Positions 1,865 through 1,915 of a DNA stretch of 9,108 nt are shown in pieces (position 1 is the stretch's first letter; each line of letters begins with the position of its first letter). Origin of the DNA: a virus (Duplodnaviria > Heunggongvirae > Uroviricota > Caudoviricetes); IMG/VR virus record IMGVR_UViG_2667527657_000003; one strand, written 5' to 3'. The translations under genes were made by a program, and so were the position numbers. The notes beneath the pieces were generated by a model. It was given only the letters and a program-made list of their open reading frames with translations. It was not told where the DNA came from and made no database searches.

Positions 1865-1880
1865 ACCCGCTCCTGATTGA

Positions 1881-1907
1881 ATGAAAAACGGGAGCATTTA
1901 GCTCCCG
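1881..1907 (-). terminator. Terminator-like hairpin plus U5 tract between E and FI (on the - strand transcript)
   Basis: The - strand reads CGGGAGC-UAAAU-GCUCCCG (7-bp GC-rich stem, 5-nt loop) followed by UUUUUCA, beginning 8 nt after the E stop codon (1916-1918). Confidence 0.4.
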
Positions 1908-1915
1908 CTCACGGA

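What the first reader, a model, noticed from the sequence alone, without database searches (positions are those of the whole stretch)
1865..1915. Terminator-like hairpin with U-tract between the capsid gene E and FI
Eight nucleotides after the E stop codon the minus-strand transcript can form CGGGAGC-UAAAU-GCUCCCG followed by UUUUU, and the FI ribosome-binding site and start (1864) come immediately after. In a Q-antiterminated late operon this would not stop transcription completely, but it could act as a partial terminator or a 3' stabiliser of processed E mRNA, which would fit the much higher demand for major capsid protein than for FI. The ORF track's longer FI start (ATG at 1897) lies inside this hairpin loop and stem and is probably spurious.
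Basis: inference. Interest (0 to 1): 0.35.

Follow-up and report, generated by a model that had tools for sequence, protein, structure and literature searches.

The report
Terminator-type hairpin after capsid gene
A short, stable RNA hairpin followed by a run of U sits just after the major capsid gene of this lambda/phage-21-like prophage; every related phage examined has one at that spot, a feature already annotated in phage N15, so it is real but ordinary.

Summary
Eight nt after the E stop codon (1918-1916, minus strand), the transcript forms CGGGAGC/UAAAU/GCUCCCG (1907-1889), followed by UUUUU (1888-1884). The FI Shine-Dalgarno AGGAG lies at 1874-1870 and the ATG at 1864. The hairpin is far more stable than chance (-17.7 kcal/mol, z -5.7). 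It survives in a 221-nt context, and E-FI is the only significantly structured spacer among the three longer than 30 nt.

All 277 relatives examined carry a GC-rich hairpin right after the major capsid gene. These fall into about 15-17 sequence types, including lambda, 21, N15, phi80 and Gifsy-1, mostly unrelated in sequence. Changes in the stem are compensatory or G·U wobbles on the sense strand. Nine of 15 types have at least 6 U in the next 8 nt.

The N15 GenBank record already annotates the equivalent stem-loop as a "putative rho-indep. transcription terminator". It also annotates one after the decoration gene, and I found that upstream D-E hairpin in most lineages too.

Most likely this is a leaky intrinsic terminator and 3'-end protector inside a Q-antiterminated late operon. 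That function is inferred, not shown. The long FI start at 1897 is spurious. It is a new member of a known kind, of low interest.

The parts
1916..2944 (-). Major capsid protein gene E (342 aa); stop codon TAA at 1918-1916
   Evidence: ORF list. 85-89% DNA identity to annotated 'major capsid protein E' genes of phage 21-like phages. PGAP annotation of the 99% identical E. coli FDAARGOS_943 locus.
1901..1907 (-). 5' arm of the hairpin, CGGGAGC, starting 8 nt after the E stop codon
   Evidence: Sequence; fold.
1896..1900 (-). Loop UAAAU. It contains an in-frame UAA and the first two bases of the spurious ATG at 1897.
1889..1895 (-). 3' arm of the hairpin, GCUCCCG
   Evidence: In 21 distinct relatives, 100% of the stem cells are standard pairs. 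There is one A-U/G-C double change with a G·U intermediate.
1884..1888 (-). U tract UUUUU immediately after the stem (6 U in the first 8 nt, UUUUUCAU)
   Evidence: A U-rich tail (>=6 of 8) occurs in 9 of 15 spacer types.
1870..1874 (-). Shine-Dalgarno AGGAG of FI, 5 nt before the ATG
   Evidence: The phage 21 record annotates a ribosome_binding_site at the equivalent place.
1478..1864 (-). FI (DNA-packaging protein) gene, 128 aa, true start ATG at 1864
   Evidence: PGAP annotation of the near-identical locus (387-bp gene, 51 nt after E). Phage 21 ORF1 starts 51 nt after gene 7. Conserved N-terminus and SD.
2973..2994 (-). Second, weakened hairpin in the D-E spacer (UCAGGUCAC UGCG GUAGCCUGA). 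It is the counterpart of a 10-bp hairpin in phage-21-type relatives and of hairpin+U7 elements in lambda and others.
   Evidence: N15 annotates the equivalent as a putative terminator.

Best explanation
This is a Rho-independent-terminator-type RNA element: a 7-bp GC-rich stem, a 5-nt loop and a U5 tract. It sits at the 3' end of the major capsid gene, inside the late (virion) operon of a phage-21/lambda-like prophage.

Shown here: the element exists, it is far more stable than chance, and it is kept by selection acting on the sense-strand RNA structure in every lambda-E-type head module examined.

Inferred mechanism: RNA polymerase that has not been modified by the late antiterminator Q stops here. 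Q-modified polymerase mostly reads through, so FI and the downstream genes are still made. A minority of transcripts end at the U tract. Longer transcripts that are cut downstream are trimmed back by 3'-to-5' exonucleases only as far as the stem. Either route leaves a hairpin-capped message ending just after E. This raises the amount and lifetime of capsid-gene mRNA relative to the genes downstream.

The element is one of a set of such intra-operon hairpins. A second one lies upstream of E in most lineages.
For: Anatomy and stability.

Positional conservation with unrelated sequences. All 277 loci encoding a lambda-E-type capsid protein (55-100% aa identity) carry a GC-rich hairpin starting 0-17 nt after the stop codon. 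They fall into about 15-17 sequence types. Examples:
- window: CGGGAGC/UAAAU
- phage 21: CGGGGGC/GAAAU
- lambda: AUGGCCC/UUCG
- N15 and phi80: GUGGCCC/AUUC
- Gifsy-1, Providencia: GGCGGG/GAAA
- Serratia: GGGGC/UACG
- E. whittamii type: GAGCC/GAAA
.

RNA-level, strand-specific selection. Within the homologous groups I counted 7 single stem changes, all G·U wobbles on the sense strand; they would be A·C mismatches on the other strand. There is one A-U/G-C double change with a G·U intermediate (L197), and a second A-U/G-C difference between lambda and N15. Against these stand only 2 disruptive singletons.

U-tract selection. Nine of 15 types have at least 6 U in the 8 nt after the stem. The binomial p is about 1e-8 to 1e-14 if the types are treated as independent. 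A pure exonuclease block would not need a U tract.

Prior recognition. The N15 record annotates the equivalent stem-loop, and those after the D and V homologues, as 'putative rho-indep. transcription terminator'.

Literature:
- Q-loaded elongation complexes bypass intrinsic and Rho-dependent terminators (PMC4914094).
- The same kind of intra-late-operon terminator follows the procapsid module of P22-like phage L. The authors propose partial termination or a block to non-antiterminated transcription (PMC8022706).
- T7 Tphi after gene 10 is a leaky terminator, 78% efficient in single-round transcription and lower in vivo (PMC2952870).
Against: - No transcript data were available, so termination, read-through and mRNA half-life are all untested.
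- Three to four lineages (Trabulsiella L009, L192, L184, and partly Serratia) have the hairpin but no U tract. In those, termination is unlikely and the hairpin must have another role.
- A hairpin plus U tract also lies upstream of E in most lineages. If leaky, it would lower E relative to D, so a simple 'more E than FI' logic does not explain the whole pattern.
- From my own recollection, not checked here: Sampson et al. 1988 (PNAS) concluded that translation initiation, not mRNA level, sets the relative expression of lambda late genes. The paper is not held in the library.
- This particular prophage is defective: the portal gene is frameshifted and the tail genes are deleted next to a tRNA gene. 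The element may no longer do anything in this host.
Confidence: 0.5

Rival explanations
1. Fail-safe insulator only. The hairpin and U tract, together with the sister elements at D-E, I-J and J-lom, exist to stop polymerases that entered the late operon without Q. Such polymerases could come from read-through or spurious promoters in a lysogen. During lytic growth the element is fully read through and has no effect on stoichiometry.
For: - Canonical intrinsic-terminator anatomy and U-tract enrichment.
- Several such elements are spread along the lambda and N15 late operons, including after low-copy genes (I-J).
- Q complexes bypass intrinsic terminators (PMC4914094).
- The option is raised explicitly for phage L (PMC8022706).
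- It is not exclusive of the best explanation.
Against: - It does not explain why the position right after the capsid gene is the one kept in every lineage.
- It does not explain lineages that keep the hairpin without a U tract.
- The promoter scan finds no excess of promoter-like sites in the window: 4 found against 7.1 expected.
Confidence: 0.25
2. Pure mRNA stability or processing element. The stem blocks 3'-to-5' exonucleases (or protects a 5' end after cleavage) and no termination takes place. The U-rich tail is incidental or serves FI translation.
For: - The hairpin is universal while the U tract is not.
- Loops are often of the very stable GNRA/UNCG kind: GAAA, UUCG, UACG, GCAA, GCGA.
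- The single-stranded AU-rich segment between the stem and the FI ribosome-binding site would suit endonuclease cutting (inference).
Against: U-tract enrichment directly after the stem in 9 of 15 types is far above chance. An exonuclease block has no need for it.
Confidence: 0.12
3. Translational device. The hairpin uncouples FI translation from the very heavy ribosome traffic on E, or shapes access to the FI ribosome-binding site.
For: - The hairpin ends 11-31 nt before the FI start in all types. In the types without a U tract it directly abuts the Shine-Dalgarno sequence.
- The spacer MFE pairs UCCGU (1915-1911) with GCGGG (1869-1865), between the SD and the AUG.
- The stem buries a spurious SD-like GGGAG plus AUG at 1897.
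Against: - The long-range pairing is not in the same register in phage-21-type relatives.
- The SD itself stays unpaired.
- The D-E hairpin and the U tracts are not explained.
Confidence: 0.08
4. Chance inverted repeat or neutral relic, for example a scar at a mosaic module junction, with no function.
For: The prophage in this window is defective. Type-A spacers are rare among complete E. coli genomes: 1 record at >=99% identity out of 1526 matching records.
Against: - z -5.7 and 0 of 200 shuffles as stable.
- A hairpin is present at the same place in every lineage despite unrelated sequences.
- Stem changes are wobble or compensatory.
Confidence: 0.03

Closest known systems
Phage N15 stem_loop 7053-7073, annotated 'putative rho-indep. 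transcription terminator' between gene 8 (major capsid) and gene 9 (FI homologue), NC_001901
   Same: Same position, between homologous genes of a homologous head module. Same design: a 7-bp GC-rich stem, a short loop and a pyrimidine-rich tail before the FI ribosome-binding site.
   Different: The stem and loop sequences are unrelated: GUGGCCC/AUUC against CGGGAGC/UAAAU. The N15 tail is weaker (CUUUCUGG, 4 U of 8) than the window's (UUUUUCAU). Neither has been tested experimentally, as far as I could find.
Phage lambda E-FI spacer hairpin (7163-7180, AUGGCCC UUCG GGGCCAU + UGUUUCUCU) and phage 21 gene 7-ORF1 spacer hairpin
   Same: Phage 21 carries the direct homologue: a 51-nt spacer and the same register, differing by one compensated pair and one loop base. 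Lambda has the positional equivalent.
   Different: In phage 21 the U run is displaced by UGUC. Lambda has an unrelated stem with a UUCG tetraloop. Neither hairpin is annotated in the records I fetched.
Intra-late-operon terminator after the procapsid gene module of P22-like phages (phage L; PMC8022706)
   Same: A predicted intrinsic terminator inside an antiterminated late operon with a single promoter, at the end of the capsid-building genes. The authors state that the roles of such terminators are not known and offer the same two hypotheses.
   Different: The head module is not homologous (P22-type coat protein). I did not examine the sequence.
T7 terminator Tphi downstream of gene 10
   Same: A leaky hairpin-dependent terminator after T7 gene 10; that gene 10 encodes the major capsid protein is my own knowledge, not stated in the paper. 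Termination is about 78% in single-round transcription and lower in vivo (PMC2952870).
   Different: It acts on T7 RNA polymerase, not on host polymerase carrying an antiterminator. It has a longer, composite stem. The resemblance is an analogy only.
Intercistronic stabiliser hairpins of bacterial operons (e.g. REP elements between malE and malF; my own knowledge, not checked here)
   Same: A stable stem-loop between a highly expressed upstream cistron and less expressed downstream ones. The proposed action is a barrier to 3'-to-5' exonucleases.
   Different: It is not a repeated element: it is single-copy in the window and matches no Rfam family. It also carries a U tract, which REPs lack.

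Membership tests
Rho-independent (intrinsic) transcription terminator | GC-rich stem of roughly 5-14 bp with a short (3-8 nt) loop | tested here: met
   7 bp (6 G-C, 1 A-U), 5-nt loop, core dG -13.3 kcal/mol.
Rho-independent (intrinsic) transcription terminator | U-rich tract immediately 3' of the stem on the transcribed strand | tested here: met
   UUUUU directly after the stem, with 6 U in the first 8 nt. On the opposite strand the stem is followed by CUCACGGA, so the element is unidirectional.
Rho-independent (intrinsic) transcription terminator | Lies downstream of a coding region, in the sense orientation, outside coding sequence | tested here: met
   It starts 8 nt after the E stop codon and ends 24 nt before the FI ATG.
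Rho-independent (intrinsic) transcription terminator | Detected by a consensus terminator scanner | tested here: not met
   The session's scanner does not list it. I attribute this to its stem-extension rule, which uses up three U's in G·U/A-U pairs. That is a property of the rule, not of the site. The lambda E-FI hairpin is listed.
Rho-independent (intrinsic) transcription terminator | Causes transcript release by RNA polymerase in vitro or in vivo | not testable with these tools
   No transcription or 3'-end data were available.
Conserved post-capsid-gene stem-loop of lambda-like head modules (as annotated in N15) | Hairpin located between the lambda-E-type capsid gene and the FI-type gene | tested here: met
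   All 277 loci and all sequence types have one 0-17 nt after the stop codon. N15 annotation.
Conserved post-capsid-gene stem-loop of lambda-like head modules (as annotated in N15) | Base pairing maintained through substitutions | tested here: met
   100% standard pairs in 146 cells. There is one double change, and the single changes are all G·U. The shuffle control is weak (48 of 500) because variation is low. Cross-group tally.
Conserved post-capsid-gene stem-loop of lambda-like head modules (as annotated in N15) | Sequence homology to the N15 or lambda hairpin | tested here: not met
   Stem and loop are unrelated to those of N15 and lambda. Homology holds only with the phage 21 type.
Any curated RNA family (Rfam 15) | Match at or near the gathering score | tested here: not met
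   No hit at gathering threshold. The best sub-threshold hits are noise: sroE at 15 bits against a gathering score of 51.
REP-type repeated extragenic palindrome | Multi-copy element with a shared consensus | tested here: not met
   Single copy in the window even with 3 mismatches allowed. Genome-wide copy number was not tested.

The most novel reading that the evidence does not exclude
The capsid gene of all lambda-like head modules is bracketed by two structure-conserved hairpins, one in the D-E spacer and one in the E-FI spacer. Together they would carve out hairpin-capped messages ending after D and after E by leaky termination and exonuclease stalling. On this reading, capsid-shell protein stoichiometry is set partly at the RNA level even in a Q-antiterminated operon. 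That runs against the classical view that lambda late-gene ratios are set by translation initiation alone.
Probability: 0.25. Interest if true: 0.45.

Novelty: new member of a known kind. Interest (0 to 1): 0.2.

Why it matters
For this window it matters little, because the prophage is a truncated, frameshifted remnant.

More generally, the comparison shows that a terminator-type hairpin directly after the major capsid gene, and usually another directly before it, is kept in every lambda-E-type head module examined. Only the structure is conserved, not the sequence. Genome papers by phage specialists still say the roles of such intra-operon terminators are unknown (PMC8022706).

The set of natural variants collected here makes the question easy to test. 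It includes versions with and without U tracts, with GNRA or UNCG loops, and with wobble intermediates.

There is also a practical point for annotation. The mechanical long start of FI, which RefSeq uses for phi80, lies inside the hairpin and should be avoided.

Tried and rejected
- The built-in terminator scan of the window did not list the site. I traced this to its stem-extension rule and did not treat it as evidence against the site.
- Rfam at gathering threshold, and at E<=10 on 1780-2000, gave nothing relevant.
- The covariation statistic within the phage-21 group is weak, with 48 of 500 shuffles as good, because the group is 92% identical. I rely instead on the cross-lineage comparison and the wobble tally.
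- Nine literature searches found no paper on the lambda or phage 21 E-FI hairpin, and no 3'-end or RNA-seq data across this junction.
- Liu et al. 2013, Sampson et al. 1988 and Casjens & Hendrix 2015 are not held. The lambda ribosome-profiling reanalysis (PMC5737525) has no per-gene tables held.
- The metagenome scan returned mostly lambda-type loci and added only one new spacer type, L210.
- I considered that the open frame from the hairpin into FI might mean a real N-terminal extension, since it is seen in the window, 21, lambda, N15 and phi80. I rejected this for four reasons: a run of 11-13 stop-free codons in GC-rich sequence is expected by chance; three lineages have in-frame stops; the region evolves as RNA structure, not as codons; and the window has UAA immediately before the 1897 ATG.
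- I rejected a DNA-level protein-binding palindrome, because the sequences are unrelated across lineages and the substitutions are wobble-compatible only on the sense RNA.
- I rejected an antisense terminator, because there is no U tract on the plus strand.

Full report
**What is in the sequence.** On the minus strand, the major capsid gene E (2944-1916) ends with TAA at 1918-1916. After 8 nt (UCCGUGAG, 1915-1908) the transcript reads CGGGAGC (1907-1901), UAAAU (1900-1896), GCUCCCG (1895-1889) and UUUUU (1888-1884). It continues CAUUCAAUC, then AGGAG (1874-1870), CGGGU, and the ATG at 1864.

**More than chance.**
- The 41-nt segment folds at -17.7 kcal/mol, against -6.3 +/- 2.0 for dinucleotide shuffles (z -5.7, 0 of 200 as good).
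- The 7-bp core is -13.3 kcal/mol.
- It ranks 4th of all 30-nt windows on the sense strand. It is the only top-ranked fold that is intergenic and followed by U's.
- It is retained in the MFE and the centroid of a 221-nt context that is otherwise unremarkable.
- Among the three spacers longer than 30 nt in the window, only E-FI is significantly structured.
- The built-in terminator scan misses it. I attribute this to its maximal stem extension, which absorbs three U's into G·U/A-U pairs.

**Identity of the region.** The window is the head-gene block of a phage-21/lambda-like prophage.
- It is 85-89% identical in DNA to phage 21 and to PhiR12-type phages over E-FI.
- It is 99% identical to a prophage of E. 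coli FDAARGOS_943.
- Its E protein is 100% identical to loci in E. coli ECMA0423 and Shigella flexneri SFBU1023.
- PGAP and the phage 21 authors both place the FI start 51 nt after E, which is 1864 here.

**Comparative evidence.** I collected 277 loci encoding a lambda-E-type capsid protein, at 55-100% amino-acid identity. They came from GTDB genomes, IMG/VR, metagenomes and GenBank phages. Every one has a GC-rich hairpin starting 0-17 nt after the capsid stop codon. The hairpins fall into about 15-17 sequence types that are mostly unrelated to each other:

| Lineage | Hairpin (5' arm, loop, 3' arm) and tail |
|---|---|
| Window | CGGGAGC UAAAU GCUCCCG + UUUUUCAU |
| Phage 21 | CGGGGGC GAAAU GCCCCCG + UGUCUUUU |
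| Lambda | AUGGCCC UUCG GGGCCAU + UUGUUUCU |
| N15 / phi80 | GUGGCCC AUUC/UGUC GGGCCAC + CUUUCUGG |
| Gifsy-1 | GGCCUG AUU CAGGCC + UUUAUUGU |
| Providencia | CGGCGGG GAAA CCCGCCG + AUUUUUAU |
| Serratia | GGGGC UACG GCCCC + UUUCCCCC |
| E. whittamii type | GAGCC GAAA GGCUC + UUUUUUUG |
| L210 | GGGGGC GUAU GCCCCC + UUUUCCGG |

L183, L194 and L195 are further types.

Three types have a strong hairpin but no U tract: Trabulsiella L009 (an 11-bp stem), L192 and L184.

Within the homologous groups, stem changes preserve pairing:
- One A-U/G-C double change separates the window from the phage 21 type, with a G·U intermediate in L197.
- A second A-U/G-C difference separates lambda from N15.
- Seven single changes are all G·U wobbles on the sense strand.
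- Only two changes are disruptive, each seen in a single contig.

G·U pairs on the sense RNA would be A·C mismatches on the other strand or in DNA. Selection therefore acts on the sense transcript. Nine of 15 types carry at least 6 U in the 8 nt after the stem, far above composition-based expectation.

The spacer upstream of E, between the decoration gene D and E, also holds a hairpin plus U tract in 10 of 12 lineages. Examples are lambda (AAAGGCCGC CUGU GCGGCUUU + UUUU), phage 21 (UCAGGCCACC GCGG UGGCCUGA), and Serratia, L192 and the E. whittamii type. In this window that element (2994-2973) is weakened by a mismatch and a wobble. Lambda has further hairpin-plus-U elements in the I-J, J-lom and lom-stf spacers.

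The N15 GenBank record already annotates stem-loops as "putative rho-indep. transcription terminator" at four places: after the D homologue, after the capsid gene (the position equivalent to this finding), after the major tail gene, and before the J homologue. The kind of element is therefore known. What was not annotated is its presence in phage 21, in lambda and in this prophage.

**FI start.** The proximal ATG (1864) has an AGGAG 5 nt upstream. Its equivalent in all 16 types has a Shine-Dalgarno sequence and a conserved N-terminus, for example MATKEENL, MTKDELIARL, MTEKEKLIARL and MSTKTQLLARI. In Serratia, the E. whittamii type and L184, an in-frame stop lies between the hairpin and the start. 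In the window, UAA immediately precedes the 1897 ATG. The long start is a mechanical artefact. The same artefact appears as the RefSeq start of phi80 FI, a GTG in the 5' arm of the hairpin.

**Mechanism.**
- *Shown:* a stable, sense-strand-selected hairpin with the canonical anatomy of an intrinsic terminator, at the 3' end of the capsid gene.
- *From the literature:* Q-loaded elongation complexes bypass intrinsic and Rho-dependent terminators (PMC4914094). Intra-late-operon terminators after the procapsid module occur in P22-like phages, and their roles are stated to be unknown; partial termination or blocking non-antiterminated transcription are offered as possibilities (PMC8022706). T7 Tphi after gene 10 is a leaky terminator (PMC2952870). 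[quoted passage not shown]
- *Inferred:* unmodified polymerase terminates at 1888-1884. Q-modified polymerase mostly reads through. Terminated or exonuclease-trimmed transcripts end in the hairpin and are protected, which enriches capsid-gene message.

I give this combined attenuator/stabiliser reading a confidence of about 0.5. The insulator-only reading gets about 0.25 and is not exclusive of it. A pure stability element gets about 0.12, a translational role about 0.08 and chance about 0.03.

*Against the favoured reading:*
- There are no RNA data.
- Some lineages lack the U tract.
- The upstream D-E hairpin does not fit a simple E>FI logic.
- The classical conclusion, which I recall but could not check, is that translation initiation sets lambda late-gene ratios.

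**Comparison with known systems and novelty.** The element meets the sequence-level definition of an intrinsic terminator; actual termination is untestable here. It is the positional equivalent of the annotated N15 stem-loop and the direct homologue of an unannotated phage 21 hairpin. It matches no Rfam family and is not a repeated element. It is a new member of a known kind.

Interest is low for this locus, all the more because the prophage is a remnant:
- A tRNA 3' end and its terminator lie at 1-111.
- Phage homology ends inside gene U at about 169.
- The portal gene is frameshifted by an extra A at 5481-5486.

The modestly interesting residue is the universality of structure-only conservation on both sides of the capsid gene, whose function has never been tested.

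Noticed in passing
window 1-111 (+): Positions 1-69 are the 3' part of a tRNA gene (Rfam tRNA, 54.6 bits, cut at the 5' end; by eye tRNA-Asp with anticodon GUC). ARAGORN misses it because it is truncated by the window edge. It is followed by a 13-14-bp hairpin at 80-111 plus GTCGTTTT, presumably the tRNA's own terminator.
   Followed up: partly
window ~120-521 (-): Homology to the fuller prophage of E. coli FDAARGOS_943 stops at about 169, inside the tail-terminator gene U. The mechanical ORF 521..15 runs out of phage DNA towards the tRNA. The prophage is therefore truncated, with all tail genes beyond U missing, next to a tRNA gene.
   Followed up: partly
window 4881-6474 (-), A-run at 5481-5486 (+): The portal gene is split into two overlapping ORFs (6474..5419 and 5504..4881). 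One extra A in a homopolymer (A6 here, A5 in FDAARGOS_943, where the portal gene is intact) causes the frameshift. This is either a pseudogene or a homopolymer sequencing error.
   Followed up: yes
window 2973-2994 (-): The D-E spacer carries a weakened copy (one C·A mismatch, one G·U) of a 10-bp hairpin that is perfect in phage-21-type relatives. Equivalent hairpin+U7 elements occur upstream of the capsid gene in lambda, N15 and most other lineages.
   Followed up: yes
window 6721-6750 (both strands): A perfect 12-bp inverted repeat (GCAGTTGCATCC CGCAA GGATGCAACTGC) lies inside the 3' end of the terminase large-subunit gene, about 50 nt before the W gene. It is the most stable local fold in the window (-22 to -23 kcal/mol).
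   Followed up: no
L199 (phi80 NC_021190) 495-533: RefSeq starts phi80 FI at a GTG inside the 5' arm of the post-capsid hairpin, 9 nt after the capsid stop. The conserved SD+ATG start (MTEKEKLIARL) is 36 nt downstream. This is probably a mis-annotated start.
   Followed up: partly
L202 (lambda) 14128-14275: The 148-nt stretch annotated as non-coding between lambda L and K folds at -67.6 kcal/mol (z about -4 against shuffles), with several long GC-rich helices.
   Followed up: no
window 1865-1918 (-): The E-FI spacer is exactly 51 nt, so E and FI are in the same reading frame. The hairpin loop supplies an in-frame UAA directly before the spurious ATG. The stem also buries an SD-like GGGAG 4 nt upstream of that ATG.
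   Followed up: partly
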